8,307 nt of DNA from a virus. Its lineage: Duplodnaviria > Heunggongvirae > Uroviricota > Caudoviricetes. The stretch covers positions 1 through 8,307 of the IMG/VR virus record IMGVR_UViG_2690315922_000019. The stretch is one strand, 5' to 3'. Shown piece after piece: positions 1 through 5,951 of the stretch (position 1 is the stretch's first letter; each line of letters opens with the position of its first letter). The notes under the pieces were generated by a model. It was not told the DNA's origin and ran no database searches. It worked only from the letters and a program-made list of their open reading frames with translations. The translations under genes were made by a program, and so were the position numbers.

Positions 1-59
1 TTAAAATTCCATTTGTATTTGATCAGAACGCTCGGTCTTGCACACCGGGCGTTTTTTAT
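1..59 (+). ncRNA. Candidate 3' end of an OOP-like antisense RNA overlapping the 3' end of cII; its start and promoter lie outside the window
   Basis: Plus-strand hairpin cgctcggt (29-36) / loop cttgcac / accgggcg (44-51) followed by the T-run ttttttat (52-59), antisense to the cII 3' end. In lambda the OOP RNA terminates inside the cII 3' end with a similar GGGCG-T6 terminator. Partial feature. Confidence 0.4.
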
Positions 60-300
60 TGGTGATTCCATCAAGCGCATACTTAAAAGCCCTGCTAATC
101 GGACTGATGTCTGATGCCATTCCGAAAGCACACAAGACCGAAGCAATAAACCTCCAGTCCGTTCTGCTTATCTTCGATTCATGACAGCCAATCATCTTTG
201 CCAGACCGCGCTGTGTAAGCGTTGACAGGTTGATGAGTAAATCTGTTTCTGCGCGATCAACGTCACGCTGTGATAGTTTGCTGTAACTTGTTTGTTCCAT
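1..300 (-). CDS. cII: cII-like transcriptional activator (99 aa)
   Basis: Complete minus-strand ORF (start codon at 298-300, stop at 1-3). The C-terminus ITNKKRPVCKTERSDQIQMEF closely resembles the lambda CII C-terminus (…ILTNKKRP…TERSEQIQMEF) as I recall it. The N-terminal half is diverged. It sits downstream of cro and nutR, as in lambda. Confidence 0.85.
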   Translation of the reverse strand: MEQTSYSKLSQRDVDRAETDLLINLSTLTQRGLAKMIGCHESKISRTDWRFIASVLCAFGMASDISPISRAFKYALDGITNKKRPVCKTERSDQIQMEF

Positions 301-364: not shown

Positions 365-399
365 ACCGCGTTGTCGGCGGTGCAGATTGATAAAGAGCG
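365..399 (-). promoter_or_regulatory. nutR-like N-utilisation site: boxA (CGCTCTTTA) and a boxB-like hairpin
   Basis: Read on the minus strand: CGCTCTTTATCAA (plus 387-399) immediately downstream of the cro stop, a 9-nt spacer, then the hairpin ACCGC-CGACAAC-GCGGT (plus 365-381). The boxA-boxB spacing equals that of nutL. Confidence 0.55.
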
Positions 400-409
400 G
401 ATCCGCTTA

Positions 410-625
410 TTAAGCGGCTTTGTGTTCCGGCGGGAACACGTCATCAAGACTGACTTTTGCGCCTAACTTGTTTAGGCACGCAACAAGAGCACGGCATGTT
501 TTAAGGTCTGGGAAGCGACGACCAGATTCCCAATGTCCGATAGCTCCCTGTGTGCATCCAACTGCCTTAGCAAGTGTTGTTTGAGAGATATTCAGTGACT
601 CTCGATATTTTCGTAGGTTGCTCAT
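410..625 (-). CDS. cro: Cro-like HTH repressor (71 aa, XRE family)
   Basis: Minus-strand ORF MSNLRKYRESLNISQTTLAKAVGCTQGAIGHWESG…KAA with a GGAGGG ribosome-binding site just upstream of the ATG at 623-625. It is divergent from cI. The HTH recognition helix (TQGAIGHW) is nearly identical to that of the adjacent cI (TQGGIGHW). The 128-aa ORF in the track is an upstream in-frame extension lacking a ribosome-binding site. Confidence 0.75.
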   Translation of the reverse strand: MSNLRKYRESLNISQTTLAKAVGCTQGAIGHWESGRRFPDLKTCRALVACLNKLGAKVSLDDVFPPEHKAA

Positions 626-736: not shown

Positions 737-1396
737 ATGAAAATGAAATGGTATGAACTGGCTAGATCCAGAATGAAAGAGCTCGGCATAACTCAAGAGA
801 AGTTAGCTGAAGAGCTTGGTATGACGCAGGGTGGAATTGGTCACTGGTTGCGCGGATCTCGTCATCCATCTCTTGACGAGATTGGTGTGGTGTTTAAATA
901 CCTTGGTATTGATAACGTCTCATTCAACCACGACGGTACATTTTCACCTGTTGGCGAATACTCATCTGCCCCCGTTAAAAAACAATATGAGTACCCTGTT
1001 TTTTCTCATGTTCAGGCCGGGATGTTCTCGCCTGAGCTTAGAACCTTTACCAAAGGTGATGCGGAGAGATGGGTAAGCACAACCAAAAAAGCCAGTGATT
1101 GTGCATTCTGGCTTGAAGTTGAAGGTAATTCCATGACCGCACCAACAGGCTACAAGCCAAGCTTCCCTGACGGGATGTTAATTCTGGTTGACCCTGAGCA
1201 GGCTGTCGAGCCAGGTGATTTCTGCATAGCCAGACTTGGGGGTGATGAGTTTACCTTCAAGAAACTGATCAGGGATAGCGGTCAGGTGTTCCTACAACCA
1301 CTAAACCCGCAATATCCAATGATCCCATGCAATGATAGCTGTTCCGTAGTAGGGAAAGTTATCGCCAGCCAGTGGCCTGAAGAGACATTTAGTTAA
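737..1396 (+). CDS. cI: CI-type prophage repressor; LexA/S24-like autocleaving C-terminal domain with a non-lambda N-terminal HTH
   Basis: The C-terminal ~150 aa ([21 protein letters not shown]…GNSM…FKKL…ASQWPEETF) is near-identical to the lambda CI C-terminal domain as I recall it, including the Ala-Gly cleavage site and the Ser/Lys catalytic dyad context. The N-terminus ([37 protein letters not shown]…) is an XRE-type HTH unlike lambda CI. The start is at ATG 737 or 743, after the aagga ribosome-binding site at 731-735; the ORF in the track starting at 662 is an extension. Confidence 0.9.
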
Positions 1397-1521: not shown

Positions 1522-1550
1522 TTGACTCAATAAAGTACACATCGTACTAT
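1522..1550 (+). promoter_or_regulatory. Candidate PL promoter with an overlapping OL-type operator dyad
   Basis: TTGACT (1522-1527), a 17-bp spacer, then TACTAT (1545-1550). The dyad AGTAC-N5-GTACT (1534-1548) overlaps the spacer and -10. It lies about 45 bp upstream of nutL. Confidence 0.45.
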
Positions 1551-1596
1551 TTAGCCATCAGCAGGAAGCTGGAAGCCAAAAGGAACAGATTGGCAG

Positions 1597-1630
1597 GCTC
1601 TTTAACTTCGATGGGGCGCTGACAAAGCGC
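1597..1630 (+). promoter_or_regulatory. nutL: boxA (GCTCTTTAAC) plus a P22-type boxB (GCGCTGACAAAGCGC)
   Basis: gctctttaac at 1597-1606, a 9-nt spacer, then gcgct-gacaa-agcgc at 1616-1630, which is the P22-type boxB hairpin with a GACAA pentaloop. It sits between the candidate PL and N. Confidence 0.7.
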
Positions 1631-1749
1631 GAACAGATACCAAACGAGATGGGTTTGGCGGTGATGTGAATTGCAGCTGCAACGACAGCAACCAGAAGAT
1701 CAGCATCTGGCGCATCACCACCAAAGCCATTTCACATGAGGAAAACATC

Positions 1750-2085
1750 ATGACGGTAATCGTGTACGGAAAATCAACATTTGCAGGAAATGCCAAAACT
1801 CGCCGTCATGAGCGGCGCAGAAAGCTGGCTATCGAGCGTGATGCCATCTGCAACATCATTGATTCTATCTTCGGCACAGACAGTGAGGAGCCTGTTCAGG
1901 AAGAGCCGAGAAAGCGTTTAAGTCTTTCTGAAAAAGCGATATCACTCGGAAGCCTTCGCTGCAAGAAGGCAGAAGAAGTCGAGAGTAAACAGAATCGTAT
2001 TTACTACAGCAAGCCACGCAGTGAAATGGGTGTGACTTGTGTTGGTCGCCAGAAAATGAAATTAGGCAGCAAACCACTTATTTGA
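1750..2085 (+). CDS. N: N antiterminator (111 aa), with a P22-type arginine-rich motif and a lambda-like C-terminus
   Basis: MTVIVYGKSTFAGNAKTRRHERRRKLAIERD… matches the P22 N (gene 24) arginine-rich boxB-binding motif as I recall it. The C-terminus …YYSKPRSEMGVTCVGRQKMKLGSKPLI resembles the lambda N C-terminus (…WYSKPGERGITCSGRQKIKGKSIPLI). A gagga ribosome-binding site lies at 1738-1742. The ORF in the track starting at 1666 is an upstream extension. Confidence 0.85.
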   Translation: MTVIVYGKSTFAGNAKTRRHERRRKLAIERDAICNIIDSIFGTDSEEPVQEEPRKRLSLSEKAISLGSLRCKKAEEVESKQNRIYYSKPRSEMGVTCVGRQKMKLGSKPLI

Positions 2086-2093
2086 GGTGATAT

Positions 2094-2543
2094 ATGGAAG
2101 AACAAGCAAACAAGATTCTCGTAGAACTACTGCAAAAAGCCAGCAATGGAATAGACGCGGCTGTTTCATTTAGCCAGGCACAGATTCCTGATGTTGTTCA
2201 TCAGTTGCTAATATGGAATATGGTTGACAGTCTGATTAAAACATTAATAGCCATTCTAACAATCCCACTGGTTTTCTGGTTTATGAAGAAGCAGTGCCAA
2301 AGAGTTGAGACAGGTAAAATCGGTGATGAAGGATATTCATGGGAGAAGGGAAAACCCAAATACAGGCCGACAATGGTTTGGGATAGCAAAGGTGATATTA
2401 ATCTTCTTATCATGCCATTGGTTGGAGTTTTGACTCTGTGGGGGATTTATATTATTGGTGCAGTAACCAATATGACTTGGTTAAAAATTTGGCTTGCCCC
2501 AAAGCTTTACCTTATCGAATATGCAGCATCATTGGTTAAGTAA
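2094..2543 (+). CDS. Small two-helix membrane protein (149 aa); possible superinfection-exclusion (SieB-like) function, by position only
   Basis: ORF with a gaggtg ribosome-binding site 4 nt before the ATG, immediately after the N stop with no intervening terminator. Two hydrophobic segments (LIKTLIAILTIPLVFWFM and INLLIMPLVGVLTLWGIYIIGAV). It occupies the slot between N and cIII where lambda and P22 carry sieB and ral. I do not recognise the sequence itself. Confidence 0.6.
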   Translation: MEEQANKILVELLQKASNGIDAAVSFSQAQIPDVVHQLLIWNMVDSLIKTLIAILTIPLVFWFMKKQCQRVETGKIGDEGYSWEKGKPKYRPTMVWDSKGDINLLIMPLVGVLTLWGIYIIGAVTNMTWLKIWLAPKLYLIEYAASLVK

Positions 2544-2547
2544 TTTC

Positions 2548-2575
2548 AGGCCGCATAGTCGGCCTTTATTTTTGG
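2548..2575 (+). terminator. Rho-independent terminator after the membrane-protein gene
   Basis: Stem aggccg (2548-2553) / loop catagt / cggcct (2560-2565) followed by ttatttttgg. Confidence 0.6.
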
Positions 2576-2692
2576 CATAAACAACAGAATAAACACTGCA
2601 CTGTGTATTCATTCCAACGAGTGAATACACGGAGCAATGTCGCTCGTAACTAAACAGGAGCCGACTTGTTCTGATTATTGGAAATCTTCTTT

Positions 2693-2720
2693 GCCCTCTA
2701 ATGTGAGGGCGATTTTTTAT
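2693..2720 (+). terminator. Second rho-independent terminator (tL2-like cluster)
   Basis: Stem gccctc (2693-2698) / loop taatgt / gagggc (2705-2710) followed by gattttttat. Confidence 0.6.
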
Positions 2721-2738
2721 CTGTGAGGGTATGAATAG

Positions 2739-3107
2739 ATGTCAAACATCAAAAAATACATCATTGATTACGACTGGAAAGCATCAATAGAAATTGAAAT
2801 CGACCATGACGTAATGACAGAGGAAAAACTTCACCAGATTAATAATTTCTGGTCAGACTCTGAATACCGACTCAATAAACACGACTCTGTATTAAATGCT
2901 GTATTAATCATGCTGGCGCAACATGCTCTGCTTATAGCAATTTCAAGCGACTTAAATGCATATGGTGTTGTGTGTGAGTTCGACTGGAATGATGGAAATG
3001 GTCAGGAAGGATGGCCTCCAATGGATGGTAGCGAAGGAATAAGAATTACCGATATCGATACATCAGGAATATTTGATTCAGATGATATGGCTATCAAGGC
3101 CGCCTGA
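2739..3107 (+). CDS. Highly acidic 122-aa protein; possibly the counterpart of lambda Ea10 (by position and size), function unknown
   Basis: ORF with a gaggg ribosome-binding site 9 nt upstream. By my count it has 23 Asp+Glu against 8 Lys+Arg, with an acidic C-terminal tail (DIDTSGIFDSDDMAIKAA). It lies immediately upstream of cIII, as ea10 does in lambda. Confidence 0.65.
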   Translation: MSNIKKYIIDYDWKASIEIEIDHDVMTEEKLHQINNFWSDSEYRLNKHDSVLNAVLIMLAQHALLIAISSDLNAYGVVCEFDWNDGNGQEGWPPMDGSEGIRITDIDTSGIFDSDDMAIKAA

Positions 3108-3179
3108 GTGCGGCGTTACCGCATACCAATAACGCTTCACTCGAGGCGTTTTTCGTTATGTATAAATAAGGAGCACACC

Positions 3180-3320
3180 ATGCAATATGCCATTGCAGGG
3201 TGGCCTGTTGCTGGCTGCCCTTCCGAATCTTTACTTGAACGAATCACCCGTAAATTACGTGACGGATGGAAACGCCTTATCGACATACTTAATCAGCCAG
3301 GAGTCCCCAAAAATGGATAA
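3180..3320 (+). CDS. cIII: CIII, inhibitor of FtsH-mediated CII degradation (46 aa here; 54 aa in lambda as I recall)
   Basis: [46 protein letters not shown] matches lambda CIII as I recall it. An aaggag ribosome-binding site lies at 3168-3173. A TAA stop at 3318-3320 ends the protein 8 codons earlier than in lambda. The ORF in the track starting at 3108 is an extension. Confidence 0.85.
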   Translation: MQYAIAGWPVAGCPSESLLERITRKLRDGWKRLIDILNQPGVPKNG

Positions 3321-3456
3321 AAAACTTATGGCTATCCAGACAAAATTCACTATTGCCACTTTTATTGGCGATGAAAAGATGTTTCGTGAGGCCGTCGACG
3401 CTTATAAAAAATGGATATTAATACTGAAACTGAGATCAAGCAAAAGCATTCACTAA
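3313..3456 (+). CDS. kil: Kil (47 aa), host cell-division (FtsZ) inhibitor
   Basis: [47 protein letters not shown]. It overlaps the cIII 3' end and the first 46 nt of gam, reproducing the lambda cIII/kil/gam overlap geometry. The ORF in the track starting at 3187 is an extension. Confidence 0.8.
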
Positions 3457-3827
3457 CCCCCTTTCCTGTTTTCCTAATCAGCCCGGCATTTCGCGGGCGA
3501 TATTTTCACAGCTATTTCAGGAGTTCGGCCATGAACGCTTATTACATTCAGGATCGTCTTGAGGCTCAGAGCTGGGCGCGTCACTACCAGCAGATAGCCC
3601 GTGAAGAGAAAGAGGCAGAACTGGCAGACGACATGGAAAAAGGCCTGCCCCAGCACCTGTTTGAATCGCTATGCATCGATCATTTGCAACGCCACGGGGC
3701 CAGCAAAAAAGCCATTACCCGTGCGTTTGATGACGATGTTGAGTTTCAGGAGCGCATGGCAGAACATATCCGGTACATGGTTGAAACCATTGCTCACCAT
3801 CAGGCTGATATTGATTCAGAGGTATAA
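3411..3827 (+). CDS. gam: Gam (138 aa), RecBCD inhibitor
   Basis: [61 protein letters not shown]… is near-identical to lambda Gam as I recall it. The internal Met at 3531 corresponds to the short GamS form. Confidence 0.95.
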
Positions 3828-3832
3828 AACGG

Positions 3833-4618
3833 ATGAGTACAGCACTCGCAACGCTGGCAGGGAAGCTGGCTGAACGTGTCGGCATGGATTCTGTCGACCC
3901 ACAGGAACTGATCACCACTCTTCGCCAGACGGCATTTAAAGGTGATGCCAGCGATGCGCAGTTCATCGCATTGCTGATCGTCGCCAACCAGTACGGCCTT
4001 AATCCGTGGACGAAAGAAATTTACGCCTTTCCTGATAAGCAGAACGGCATCGTTCCGGTGGTGGGCGTCGATGGCTGGTCCCGCATCATCAATGAAAACC
4101 AGCAGTTTGATGGCATGGACTTTGAGCAGGACAATGAATCCTGCACATGCCGGATTTACCGCAAGGACCGTAATCATCCGATCTGCGTTACCGAGTGGAT
4201 GGATGAATGCCGCCGCGAACCATTCAAAACCCGCGAAGGCAGAGAAATTACGGGGCCGTGGCAGTCGCATCCCAAACGGATGTTACGGCATAAAGCCATG
4301 ATTCAGTGTGCCCGTCTGGCCTTCGGATTCGCGGGTATCTATGACAAGGATGAAGCCGAGCGCATTGTCGAAAATACCGCATACACTGCAGAACGTCAGC
4401 CGGAACGCGACATCACTCCGGTTAACGATGAAACCATGCAGGAGATTAACACTCTGCTGATTGCCCTGGACAAAACATGGGATGACGACTTATTGCCGCT
4501 CTGTTCCCAGATATTTCGCCGCGACATTCGCGCATCGTCAGAACTGACACAGGCCGAAGCAGTGAAAGCTCTTGGATTCCTGAAACAGAAAGCCTCTGAA
4601 CAGAAGGTGGCTGCATGA
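3833..4618 (+). CDS. bet: Bet (Red-beta, 261 aa), single-strand annealing recombinase
   Basis: [66 protein letters not shown]… matches lambda Bet. It starts 5 nt after the gam stop. Confidence 0.95.
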
Positions 4619-5295
4619 CACCGGACATTATCCTGCAGCGTACCGGGATCGACGTGAGAGCTGTCGAACAGGGGGATGATGCGTGGCACAAATTACGGCT
4701 CGGCGTCATCACCGCTTCAGAAGTTCACAATGTGATAGCAAAACCCCGCTCCGGAAAGAAATGGCCTGACATGAAAATGTCCTACTTCCACACCCTGCTT
4801 GCTGAGGTTTGCACCGGTGTGGCTCCGGAAGTTAACGCTAAGGCGCTGGCCTGGGGAAAACAGTACGAGAACGACGCCAGAGCCCTCTTTGAGTTCACTT
4901 CCGGCGTTAATGTTACTGAATCCCCGATCATCTATCGCGACGAAAGTATGCGCACCGCCTGCTCTCCCGATGGTTTATGCAGTGACGGCAACGGCCTTGA
5001 GCTGAAATGCCCGTTTACCTCCCGGGATTTCATGAAGTTCCGGCTCGGTGGTTTCGAGGCCATAAAATCGGCTTACATGGCCCAGGTGCAGTACAGCATG
5101 TGGGTGACGCGAAAAGATGCCTGGTACTTTGCCAACTATGACCCGCGAATGAAGCGTGAAGGCCTGCATTATGTCGTGGTTGCGCGGGATGAAAAGTACA
5201 TGGCGAGTTTTGACGAGATGGTGCCGGAGTTCATCGAAAAAATGGACGAGGCACTGGCTGAAATTGGTTTTGTATTTGGGGAGCAATGGCAATGA
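4615..5295 (+). CDS. exo: Exo (Red-alpha, 226 aa), 5'-3' dsDNA exonuclease
   Basis: [65 protein letters not shown]… matches lambda Exo. Its ATG overlaps the bet stop (ATGA). Confidence 0.95.
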
Positions 5296-5474
5296 AGCAT
5301 CCTCACGATAATATCCGGGTAGGCACGATCACTTTCGTCTACTCCGTTACAAAGCGAGGCTGGGTATTTCCCGGCCTTTCTGTTATCAGAAATCCACTGA
5401 AAGCACAGCGGCTGGCTGAGGAGATAAATAATAAACGGGGGGCTGTATGCACAAAGCATCTCCTGTTGAGTTAA
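5286..5474 (+). CDS. Small protein in the lambda orf60a position (62 aa), function unknown
   Basis: ORF overlapping the exo stop by 10 nt, in the slot immediately after exo where lambda has orf60a. Assignment is by position and size; I cannot confirm sequence identity from memory. Confidence 0.65.
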
Positions 5475-5638
5475 GAACGAGTATCGAGATGGCACATAGC
5501 CTCGCTCAAATTGGAGTCAGGTTTGTGCCAATACCAGTAGAAACAGACGAAGAATTTCATACGTTAGCCACATCCCTTTCACAAAAGCTGGAAATGATGG
5601 TGGCGAAAGCAGAAGCAGATGAGAGAGACCAGGTATGA
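5447..5638 (+). CDS. Small protein in the lambda orf63 position (63 aa), function unknown
   Basis: ORF overlapping the preceding gene by 28 nt. Its size and position correspond to lambda orf63. Confidence 0.65.
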   Translation: MHKASPVELRTSIEMAHSLAQIGVRFVPIPVETDEEFHTLATSLSQKLEMMVAKAEADERDQV

Positions 5639-5714
5639 CAACCACTGAATGCACTCTTCTGGCAGCGGGCTTCATATTCTGTGTGCTTATGCTTGCCGAT
5701 ATGGGACTTGTTCA

Positions 5715-5930
5715 ATGACACCTCAGCAGGAAAACGCCCTTCGCAGCATTGCCCGTCAGGCTAATTCTGAAATCAAAAAAGCCAGACAGCAGTTTCCGGA
5801 TAAAAACGTCGATGACATTTGCCGTAGCGTACTGAAGAAGCACCGCGAAACGGTAACGCTGATGGGATTCACACCGACTCATTTAAGTCTGGCGATCGGC
5901 ATGTTAAACGGCGTCTTTAAGGAGCGATGA
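5715..5930 (+). CDS. Small protein in the lambda orf61 position (71 aa from MTPQQ…), function unknown
   Basis: MTPQQENALRSIARQANSEIKKARQQFPDKN…. The ORF in the track starting at 5649 is an N-terminal extension. An ATG at 5715 is preceded by an ATGA-coupled micro-ORF (see findings). Confidence 0.6.
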   Translation: MTPQQENALRSIARQANSEIKKARQQFPDKNVDDICRSVLKKHRETVTLMGFTPTHLSLAIGMLNGVFKER

Positions 5931-5951
5931 ACATGAAAAGCAAAATCATCA

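What the first reader, a model, noticed from the sequence alone, without database searches (positions are those of the whole stretch)
1597..2085. Mosaic antitermination module: P22-type boxB and N arginine-rich motif joined to a lambda-like N C-terminus
The nutL boxB is exactly GCGCTGACAAAGCGC and the N protein begins with the P22-type arginine-rich motif (GNAKTRRHERRRKLAIERD), yet the C-terminal third of N and all downstream recombination genes are lambda-like. The RNA-binding specificity module and its cognate RNA site have therefore moved together into a lambda-type backbone, which is a clean natural example of co-evolving protein-RNA module exchange.
Basis: partly seen in the sequence, partly recalled or inferred. 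Interest (0 to 1): 0.45.

Follow-up and report, generated by a model that had tools for sequence, protein, structure and literature searches.

The report
Known mosaic phage N antiterminator gene
The prophage's N antitermination gene really is a hybrid: a P22-type RNA-binding front with matching P22-type RNA sites, joined to a phage-21-type (not lambda) tail. The same hybrid is already present in dozens of sequenced Shiga-toxin phages and E. coli genomes, so it is an ordinary example of known phage mosaicism.

Summary
The sequence features are real. nutL boxB (1616-1630) and nutR boxB (380-366, minus strand) are each identical to their P22 counterparts. N (1750-2085, 111 aa) shares 40/42 N-terminal residues with P22 gp24, including the whole arginine-rich motif.

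N is chimeric, but the tail is phage-21/CUS-3-type, not lambda-type. Residues 74-111 match phage 21 at 36/38, CUS-3 at 37/38, lambda at 20/38 and P22 at 5/38. Lambda N shows no nucleotide similarity.

A single crossover falls in a 27-nt stretch (1941-1967, codons for SLGSLRCKK). That stretch is identical in the window, phage 21 and the fully P22-type N of E. coli phage Lambda_2G7a. 131 of 134 informative sites fit this one breakpoint.

The backbone is a phage-21-like prophage next to icd. Lambda identity of 97.3% begins only at 2555.

The hybrid is not new. The same nutL-N hybrid occurs in 52 phage records, mostly Stx phages, and in 66 of 5426 complete E. coli genomes. The same architecture is published for Salmonella phage L gp24.

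Across 16 N loci, the RNA-binding motif and boxB always co-vary, while C-terminal types shuffle freely.

Verdict: correct in outline, wrong on the donor, already known, low interest.

The parts
366..380 (-). nutR boxB, CCGCCGACAACGCGG. It forms a 5-bp stem when flanking A381 and U365 are included, with a GACAA-containing loop.
   Evidence: Identical to P22 nutR boxB. Hairpin predicted. Lies in a 37-nt stretch, 363-399, that is 94.6% identical to P22.
389..399 (-). nutR boxA, CGCTCTTTATC, directly after the cro stop.
   Evidence: The joint with phage ev017, which has the same immunity region but a different boxB, falls here.
1522..1550 (+). pL-like promoter: TTGACT, 17 nt, TACTAT.
   Evidence: Consensus scan. 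Its position matches the annotated pL of phage 21 in alignment. Function is inferred.
1553..1606 (+). Conserved pL leader ending in nutL boxA (GCTCTTTAAC, 1597-1606). This is the 5' boundary of the specificity cassette.
   Evidence: Conserved in the window, ev017, phage 21, Lambda_2G7a and P22 whatever their N type. Divergence begins right after boxA.
1616..1630 (+). nutL boxB, GCGCTGACAAAGCGC: a 5-bp stem with a GACAA pentaloop.
   Evidence: Unique exact match with 0.01 expected by chance. Identical to P22 nutL boxB. Hairpin in both the MFE and centroid folds.
1646..1733 (+). Long stable hairpin in the N leader, between boxB and the N ribosome-binding site.
   Evidence: For the 143-nt leader 1610-1752 that contains it: -56 kcal/mol, z = -6.8, 0 of 200 shuffles as stable. 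The stem base is invariant in 8 P22-type leaders while the apex varies. Its role is inferred by analogy to the lambda N-leader RNase III hairpin (own knowledge).
1750..1940 (+). N codons 1-64, the P22-type part. The arginine-rich motif is residues 13-31 (nt 1786-1842), followed by the central segment.
   Evidence: Residues 1-42 match P22 at 40/42. Residues 43-60 match P22 at 5/18 but Lambda_2G7a at 17/18. Pfam PF25694 N_peptide matches residues 1-76. Nucleotides 1554-1977 are 95.3% identical to Lambda_2G7a.
1941..1967 (+). Crossover interval: 27 nt (codons SLGSLRCKK) identical in the window, the P22-type Lambda_2G7a N and phage 21 N.
   Evidence: 131 of 134 informative sites fit one breakpoint in 1941-1967.
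1968..2085 (+). N codons 74-111, the phage-21/CUS-3-type C-terminal module. It is homologous to the RNA-polymerase-binding C-terminal domain of lambda N.
   Evidence: Matches phage 21 at 36/38, CUS-3 at 37/38, lambda at 20/38 and P22 at 5/38. Nucleotides 1930-2105 are 95.5% identical to phage 21. PDB 6GOV lambda N matches at E = 1.4e-6, with the alignment strongest at the C-terminus.
2548..2575 (+). Intrinsic-terminator-like hairpin plus T-run downstream of orf149. Candidate N-suppressed terminator.
   Evidence: Consensus scan. Function is inferred.
2691..2722 (+). Second terminator-like hairpin plus T-run, upstream of ea10. Candidate tL.
   Evidence: Consensus scan. A terminator is annotated at the equivalent position in phage 21.

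Best explanation
**What it is.** This is the N/nut early antitermination module of a phage-21-like prophage integrated next to icd.

**How it most likely works.**
- The N gene is the first gene of the pL operon.
- The P22-type arginine-rich motif (residues 13-31) binds the GACAA-loop boxB hairpins. These are transcribed from nutL (1616-1630) and nutR (380-366, minus strand).
- The adjacent boxA elements recruit host NusB/NusE.
- The C-terminal 38 residues are phage-21-type and homologous to the lambda N C-terminal domain (residues 73-107). They engage RNA polymerase, so transcription reads through the terminators downstream of N and cro.

**History.**
- The gene is an intragenic mosaic. A specificity cassette carries nutL boxB, the leader hairpin and N codons 1-64. 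It is bounded on the 5' side by the universally conserved pL leader and boxA.
- On the 3' side it is bounded by a conserved 27-nt patch (1941-1967).
- The cassette is of the P22 lineage long resident in E. coli phages. Everything 3' of the patch is phage-21 lineage.
- The junction arose by homologous recombination within the shared patch. It is inherited by, or recurs in, many E. coli prophages and Stx phages.

**Shown versus inferred.** The sequence relationships, the breakpoint, the motif-boxB co-variation and the prevalence are shown. RNA binding, Nus-factor use, polymerase contact and terminator read-through are inferred from studied homologues.
For: - boxB-L and boxB-R are identical to P22's.
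- The arginine-rich motif is identical to P22 gp24.
- Segment identities: residues 1-42 match P22 at 40/42, and residues 74-111 match phage 21 at 36/38.
- Nucleotide mapping: 1554-1977 is 95.3% identical to Lambda_2G7a and 1930-2105 is 95.5% identical to phage 21. Lambda N gives nothing.
- A single breakpoint in 1941-1967 fits 131 of 134 informative sites.
- The Pfam P22-type N model matches only profile positions 1-76 of 100.
- The lambda N chain of the antitermination complex 6GOV matches at E = 1.4e-6, and the C-terminus aligns.
- Motif and boxB pair one-to-one while C-terminal types are shuffled in 16 loci.
- Phage ev017 has the same immunity region but a different nutR boxB, nutL boxB and N, with both joints at boxA.
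- The same hybrid is in 52 phage records and 66 of 5426 E. coli genomes.
- An identical protein is found on 5 independent contigs.
- Published precedent: phage L gp24 equals P22 over 75 residues, has an unrelated C-terminus and identical boxB sites, and is functionally interchangeable with P22 gp24 (PMC8022706).
- The three-region model of N, with the C-terminal domain at residues 73-107 binding RNA polymerase, is from PMC3526286.
Against: - No functional data exist for this protein.
- A NusA-binding segment cannot be recognised by sequence.
- The direction of exchange is undetermined. P22-motif N proteins of ES18, BTP1 and Cronobacter phage ENT47670 also end in ...SKPLI, so the P22/HK97-type tail may be the derived state.
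- One ancestral event cannot be told apart from recurrent crossover at the same patch.
- The terminators and promoter are consensus matches only.
Confidence: 0.9

Rival explanations
1. A P22 RNA-binding module and its boxB were joined to a lambda N C-terminus in a lambda backbone.
For: - The lambda N C-terminus is a distant homologue: 20/38 residues, and 6GOV matches at E = 1.4e-6.
- The segment from ea10 past exo (2555-6240) is 97.3% identical to lambda.
Against: - No nucleotide similarity to lambda N was found.
- The tail is 95.5% identical to phage 21 in nucleotides and 36/38 in residues.
- int, xis and the icd-adjacent site are those of phage 21. The 2555-8307 stretch is 97.2% identical to phage 21, whereas the lambda match stops at 6240.
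Confidence: 0.05
2. Not a chimera in any meaningful sense. The protein is a uniform member of one existing N lineage, that of Stx-phage and E. coli prophage N.
For: - The whole N is 92.9% identical to Stx2_EH0505 and 95.5% identical to E. coli Br_190 along its full length.
- Both relatives carry the same junction.
Against: - Those relatives are the same chimera.
- Against the prototypes the two halves have incompatible nearest relatives. Lambda_2G7a and P22 match only residues 1-73, and phage 21 and CUS-3 match only residues 61-111.
- So this reading describes the age and spread of the mosaic, not its absence.
Confidence: 0.3
3. Reversed polarity. The ...YSKP...GRQK.K..SKPLI tail is the ancestral state for P22-motif N proteins, and the P22/HK97-type tail (...LYAAGYRKSKQLTAR) is the later replacement. 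The window's N is then closer to the original arrangement than P22's own.
For: - P22-motif N proteins of ES18, BTP1 and ENT47670 all end in SKPLI.
- HK97-type N genes are followed by untranslated relics of the phage-21-type 3' end, 98-100% identical to window 2032-2099.
Against: - The window's tail is 95.5% identical to phage 21, while its front cannot be aligned with phage 21. At least one exchange between lineages is still required.
- ES18 and BTP1 tails match the window at only 16-17 of 38 residues.
Confidence: 0.35
4. The motif-boxB match to P22 reflects convergence under selection rather than shared descent or recombination.
For: Only residues 1-42 are strongly conserved with P22. Residues 43-60 are not.
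Against: Similarity extends through the non-coding leader and synonymous positions. The window is 74% identical to P22 over 1550-1875 and 95% identical to Lambda_2G7a. The spacer between boxA and boxB and the base of the leader stem are also shared.
Confidence: 0.02

Closest known systems
N of Stx-converting phages (e.g. SH2026Stx1 MG986485, Stx2_EH0505 LC616031) and of E. coli prophages (e.g. strain Br_190_kylling, WP_346719973)
   Same: They carry the same chimera with the same junction, at 92.9-95.5% protein identity. nutL boxB is identical. Br_190 also has the same nutR boxB, immunity region and orf149.
   Different: There are a few substitutions. Stx2_EH0505 has a 6-nt insertion just 3' of the crossover patch (KKSKSEE). 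The flanking genes differ in the Stx phages.
Salmonella phage L gp24, and the similar N proteins of ES18 and BTP1
   Same: They combine a P22-type N-terminal ~75 residues and P22 boxB sites with a non-P22 C-terminus. Phage L gp24 is published as functionally interchangeable with P22 gp24 (PMC8022706). The ES18 and BTP1 tails also end in SKPLI.
   Different: The ES18/BTP1 tails are a different subtype, matching the window at 16-17 of 38 residues. Their central segment is the Salmonella P22 version. The phage L sequence itself was not fetched here.
Salmonella phage P22 gp24 with P22 nutL/nutR
   Same: The arginine-rich motif is identical and residues 1-42 match at 40/42. Both boxB sequences are identical, as is the boxA-boxB spacing.
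   Different: Residues 43-60 match at 5/18 and the C-terminus at 5/38. The P22 tail is ...LYAAGHRKSKQITAR. Nucleotide identity is only about 74-85%.
Phage 21 N and CUS-3/Gally N
   Same: The C-terminal 38 residues match at 36-37 of 38. Nucleotides 1930-2105 are 95.5% identical, including 20 nt past the stop codon. Phage 21 also shares the rest of the backbone.
   Different: Both the arginine-rich motif and boxB are different. Phage 21 boxB is TCTCAACCTAACCGTTGAGA and CUS-3 boxB is CCCGCCGAAATGCGGG.
Phage lambda N (PDB 6GOV antitermination complex)
   Same: It has the same three-region architecture and position in the genome. The C-terminal polymerase-binding region is homologous, with 18/30 identities over the last 30 residues.
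   Different: The arginine-rich motif differs (MDAQTRRRERRAEKQAQWKAAN) and so does boxB (GCCCTGAAGAAGGGC). No nucleotide similarity was found in N.

Membership tests
Lambdoid N/nut processive antitermination system | Small basic protein with an N-terminal arginine-rich RNA-binding motif | tested here: met
   The protein is 111 aa. Residues 13-31 are GNAKTRRHERRRKLAIERD. Pfam PF25694 matches at E = 7e-26 and PHROG 271 'anti-termination protein N-like' at E = 2.5e-46.
Lambdoid N/nut processive antitermination system | boxA plus boxB hairpin (nut) in both early transcripts: after pL and before N, and after cro and before cII | tested here: met
   nutL is boxA 1597-1606 plus boxB 1616-1630. nutR is boxA 399-389 plus boxB 380-366 on the minus strand. 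Both hairpins fold.
Lambdoid N/nut processive antitermination system | N is the first gene of the pL operon, next to the immunity region | tested here: met
   The order is cI (740-1396), terminator, pL-like promoter (1522-1550), nutL, then N at 1750. The layout matches annotated phage 21.
Lambdoid N/nut processive antitermination system | C-terminal region homologous to the RNA-polymerase-binding domain of lambda N (residues 73-107) | tested here: met
   phmmer against PDB 6GOV chain N gives E = 1.4e-6, with high-confidence alignment of YSKP...GRQK.K..S.PLI. Identity is 20/38.
Lambdoid N/nut processive antitermination system | Central NusA-binding segment | tested here: inconclusive
   Residues 43-60 align positionally with lambda N residues ~37-51, but without significant similarity. 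Binding cannot be assessed by sequence.
Lambdoid N/nut processive antitermination system | Nus-factor-dependent read-through of downstream terminators | not testable with these tools
   Only terminator-like sites at 2548-2575 and 2691-2722 could be located.
P22 gp24-type N (Pfam PF25694 N_peptide) | P22 arginine-rich motif and a cognate GACAA-pentaloop boxB | tested here: met
   The motif and both boxB sequences are identical to P22.
P22 gp24-type N (Pfam PF25694 N_peptide) | Full-length similarity including the P22-type C-terminus (...LYAAGHRKSKQITAR) | tested here: not met
   The Pfam match stops at profile position 76 of 100. Residues 74-111 match P22 at 5/38.
Phage 21 N | Phage-21 arginine-rich motif (GTAKSRYKARRAELIAERR) and the phage-21 boxB | tested here: not met
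   Residues 1-42 match at 14/42, and the boxB is different.
Phage 21 N | Phage-21 C-terminal half | tested here: met
   Residues 74-111 match at 36/38, and nucleotides 1930-2105 are 95.5% identical.
Lambda N proper | Lambda arginine-rich motif and boxB, and close similarity of the C-terminus | tested here: not met
   Motif and boxB both differ. No nucleotide similarity was found in N, and overall protein identity is 32.7%.

The most novel reading that the evidence does not exclude
The lambdoid N gene may behave as a fixed set of exchangeable cassettes with a few preferred joints.
- The candidate joints are boxA, the 27-nt SLGSLRCKK patch, the YSKP codons, and the last ~17 codons with the stop.
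- Specificity cassettes (boxB plus arginine-rich motif) would then be swapped repeatedly against polymerase-binding tails.
- Untranslated relics of the phage-21-type 3' end lie behind the HK97-type N of HK97 and a Stx1 phage, behind the Nun-like gene of mEp235, and upstream of orf28 and ral in lambda and ev017. These would be footprints of such replacements.
- A second, weaker idea concerns the central segment (residues 43-60), which differs between the E. coli and Salmonella phage versions. It may be a host-specific NusA-contact adaptation.
- Neither idea was tested systematically here, and neither may be new to specialists.
Probability: 0.45. Interest if true: 0.3.

Novelty: already known. 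Interest (0 to 1): 0.15.

Why it matters
- It is a clean textbook illustration of two points. RNA-binding specificity in N (arginine-rich motif plus boxB) is inherited as one unit. The polymerase-binding tail is an independent, interchangeable module.
- This matches engineered N hybrids (own knowledge: Lazinski et al. 1989) and the published phage L / P22 comparison.
- It adds no new mechanism or family.
- Its practical value is for annotation. N proteins of this kind are often labelled 'hypothetical protein' in RefSeq, and nut sites are unannotated.

Tried and rejected
- **Rfam.** A permissive scan of the whole window found no nut/boxB family. The only hit was the cIII thermoregulator RF01804 at 3167-3225.
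- **NCBIfam.** There is no model for N or for orf149.
- **Leader hairpin covariation.** The conserved stem base is invariant in all 8 sequences, so it is uninformative. Only one pair showed a double change.
- **Short nut folds.** The 49-51-nt nutL and nutR segments are not more stable than shuffles (z = -0.03 and -0.46). That is expected for 5-bp hairpins, so the case for boxB rests on exact identity to P22, not on folding energy.
- **Literature.** Searches for an explicit prior description of the Stx-phage hybrid N, and for Degnan et al. 2007, found nothing in the held library. One search failed on syntax.
- **orf149 versus HK97 gp45.** No similarity.
- **Convergence** as an explanation of the P22 match was rejected because of the non-coding similarity.
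- **Not run.** The large protein-database searches and structure prediction were skipped. N is short and largely disordered, and the verdict would not change.

Full report
**Context**

The window is identical to bases 64-8370 of NCBI assembly GCA_001514765.1, contig BBVO01000015.1, where it is followed by icd. Read left to right it is the early-left arm of a lambdoid prophage:
- cII (1-300, minus strand)
- nutR
- cro (410-625, minus strand)
- cI (740-1396)
- a terminator
- a pL-like promoter (1522-1550)
- nutL
- N (1750-2085)
- orf149 (2094-2543)
- two terminator-like hairpins
- ea10, cIII, kil, gam, bet, exo
- xis (6939-7175) and int (7165-8307)

The best whole-window relatives are phage-21-like phages (Jouyvirus), at about 97% identity over 75-85% of the window. 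Phage 21 itself is 97.2% identical over 2555-8307. Lambda matches at 97.3% over 2555-6240 only.

**Checking the observation**

- GCGCTGACAAAGCGC occurs once, at 1616-1630, against 0.01 expected by chance.
- It sits 9 nt after a consensus boxA, GCTCTTTAAC, at 1597-1606.
- P22 nutL has the same boxA core, the same spacing and an identical boxB.
- On the minus strand, between cro and cII, there is a second nut site. It consists of boxA CGCTCTTTATC (399-389) and boxB CCGCCGACAACGCGG (380-366). This boxB is identical to P22 nutR boxB.
- N starts at the ATG at 1750, behind GAGGAA. The longer mechanical ORF from 1666 is an artefact of an in-frame upstream GTG.
- Residues 13-31 are identical to the P22 gp24 arginine-rich motif.

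The RNA and motif parts of the observation are therefore correct.

**Is N chimeric, and with what?**

Identity of each reference to the window's N, by segment:

| Reference | Residues 1-42 | Residues 43-60 | Residues 61-73 | Residues 74-111 |
|---|---|---|---|---|
| P22 gp24 | 40/42 | 5/18 | 7/13 | 5/38 |
| E. coli phage Lambda_2G7a (P22-type N throughout) | 41/42 | 17/18 | 13/13 | 7/38 |
| Phage 21 | 14/42 | 0/18 | 11/13 | 36/38 |
| CUS-3 | 10/42 | 0/18 | 11/13 | 37/38 |
| Lambda | 9/42 | 4/18 | 3/13 | 20/38 |

- At the nucleotide level, 1554-1977 is 95.3% identical to Lambda_2G7a and 1930-2105 is 95.5% identical to phage 21.
- Lambda N gives no hit.
- In a three-way alignment, 131 of 134 informative sites fit a single breakpoint within 1941-1967. 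This 27-nt stretch encodes SLGSLRCKK and is identical in all three sequences.
- Independently, the Pfam model of P22-type N (PF25694) matches residues 1-76 to profile positions 1-76 of 100 and then stops.
- The tail is a distant homologue of the lambda N C-terminus. The 6GOV chain N matches at E = 1.4e-6.

'Lambda-like' is thus true only at the family level. The actual lineage of the tail is phage 21/CUS-3.

**Did the RNA site and the RNA-binding motif move together?**

Three lines of evidence say yes.
- **Flanking sites.** Both nut sites are P22-type, although the immunity region between them is not P22. The only P22 hits in the window are 363-399, a weak 1104-1197, 1550-1875 and two weak ones further downstream.
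- **Comparison with phage ev017.** It shares the immunity region (5-1390, 89.9% identical) but has a different nutR boxB, a different nutL boxB and an HK97-type N. Both joints fall exactly at boxA.
- **Survey of 16 N loci.** Five motif types pair one-to-one with five boxB types. The C-terminal types are distributed across motif types, as listed here:
  - phage-21 type (...YSKPRSEMGVTCVGRQKMKLGSKPLI)
  - ES18 type
  - lambda type
  - P22/HK97 type (...LYAAGYRKSKQLTAR)
  - As examples, the phage-21 tail is found behind P22, phage-21, CUS-3 and lambda (Sf101) motifs.

The pL leader up to boxA (1553-1606) is conserved in all types. The exchangeable specificity cassette is therefore about 1607-1940, flanked by conserved sequence on both sides.

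**How it most likely works (inferred)**

By homology with lambda, P22 and H-19B N, three steps are expected.
- The motif binds the boxB hairpins in the nascent pL and pR transcripts.
- boxA recruits NusB/NusE, and a central segment contacts NusA.
- The C-terminal domain contacts RNA polymerase near the RNA exit channel. This contact gives processive read-through of terminators far from nut.

The three-region model, with the lambda C-terminal domain at residues 73-107, is from PMC3526286. The crossover lies just upstream of the segment that aligns with lambda residues 73-107, so it falls at a functional domain boundary. Candidate targets are the terminator-like hairpins at 2548-2575 and 2691-2722. 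None of this was or could be tested here.

**Is it new?**

No.
- The same nutL-N hybrid, covering at least 80% of 1590-2085, is present in 52 phage records, mostly Stx2a- and Stx1-converting phages.
- It is also present in 66 of 5426 complete E. coli genomes.
- The whole protein is 92.9-95.5% identical to those copies, which carry the same junction.
- The exact protein occurs on five independent contigs.
- The architecture is published for Salmonella phage L. Its gp24 is 96% identical to P22 gp24 over 75 residues, has an unrelated C-terminal 25-35 residues and identical boxB sites, and the two proteins are interchangeable (PMC8022706).
- A reciprocal case is published for phage epsilon34, which has a novel N-terminal 27 residues on a conserved remainder (PMC2629481).
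- The P22-type cassette here is not a recent import. It is 74-85% identical to P22 DNA but 95% identical to E. coli phages.

**Open points**

- The direction of exchange cannot be determined.
- P22-motif N proteins of ES18, BTP1 and a Cronobacter phage also end in SKPLI.
- HK97-type N genes are followed by untranslated relics of the phage-21-type 3' end.
- The P22/HK97 tail may therefore be the derived state.

**Verdict**

The phenomenon is already documented and widespread. Interest is low.

Noticed in passing
window 2032-2099; L020 (HK97) 901-965; L023 (Stx1 phage AP005153) 901-967; L022 (mEp235) 907-994; L001 (lambda) 2486-2509; L010 (ev017) 4403-4426: Other phages carry untranslated relics of a phage-21-type N 3' end. 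In HK97 and a Stx1 phage, 65-67 nt that are 98-100% identical to the window's N end follow their own HK97-type N, and the TGA stop lies inside the relic. mEp235 keeps the last 28 codons downstream of its Nun-like gene. Lambda and ev017 keep 24 nt (N stop plus the start of orf28) upstream of ral.
   Followed up: partly
window 389-399 (-) and 1553-1606 (+); L010 (ev017): Phage ev017 shares the window's immunity region (5-1390, 89.9% identical) but has a different nutR boxB, nutL boxB and N. Both mosaic joints sit at boxA. The pL leader up to boxA is conserved across five phages with different N types.
   Followed up: partly
window 1646-1733 (+): A very stable long hairpin lies in the N leader between boxB and the ribosome-binding site (for the 143-nt leader 1610-1752: -56 kcal/mol, z = -6.8). 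Its stem base is invariant in 8 P22-type leaders, while the apex varies so that the leaders span 136-213 nt. It may be an analogue of the lambda N-leader RNase III site.
   Followed up: partly
window 740-1396 (+): The cI repressor is itself an intragenic mosaic. Nucleotides 986-1390 (the peptidase S24 C-terminal domain) are 94.8% identical to lambda cI. The N-terminal HTH domain, cro and the operators are not lambda, phage 21 or P22.
   Followed up: no
window 2094-2543 (+): orf149 is a predicted membrane-type protein with no Pfam or NCBIfam hit (PHROG 3054, unknown function). It occupies the place of orf28 and ral in phage 21. It shares only its ribosome-binding site and first three codons (ATGGAAGAA) with orf28. 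It is also found in Gally, partly in CUS-3, and in E. coli prophages.
   Followed up: partly
window 1876-1929 (N residues 43-60): The central segment of P22-type N differs sharply between E. coli-phage copies (GTDSEEPVQEEPRKRLSL) and Salmonella-phage copies (GCDAPDASQEVKAKRIDR). It aligns positionally with the lambda N NusA-binding segment. Host-specific adaptation is possible but untested.
   Followed up: no
window 3167-3225 (+): The lambda cIII thermoregulator RNA element (Rfam RF01804) matches at 88.5 bits, E = 3.9e-21.
   Followed up: no
L004 (Stx2_EH0505), at the position equivalent to window ~1966: The Stx2a-phage copies of the hybrid N carry a 6-nt insertion (AAGTCA, giving KKSKSEE) just 3' of the crossover patch.
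   Followed up: no
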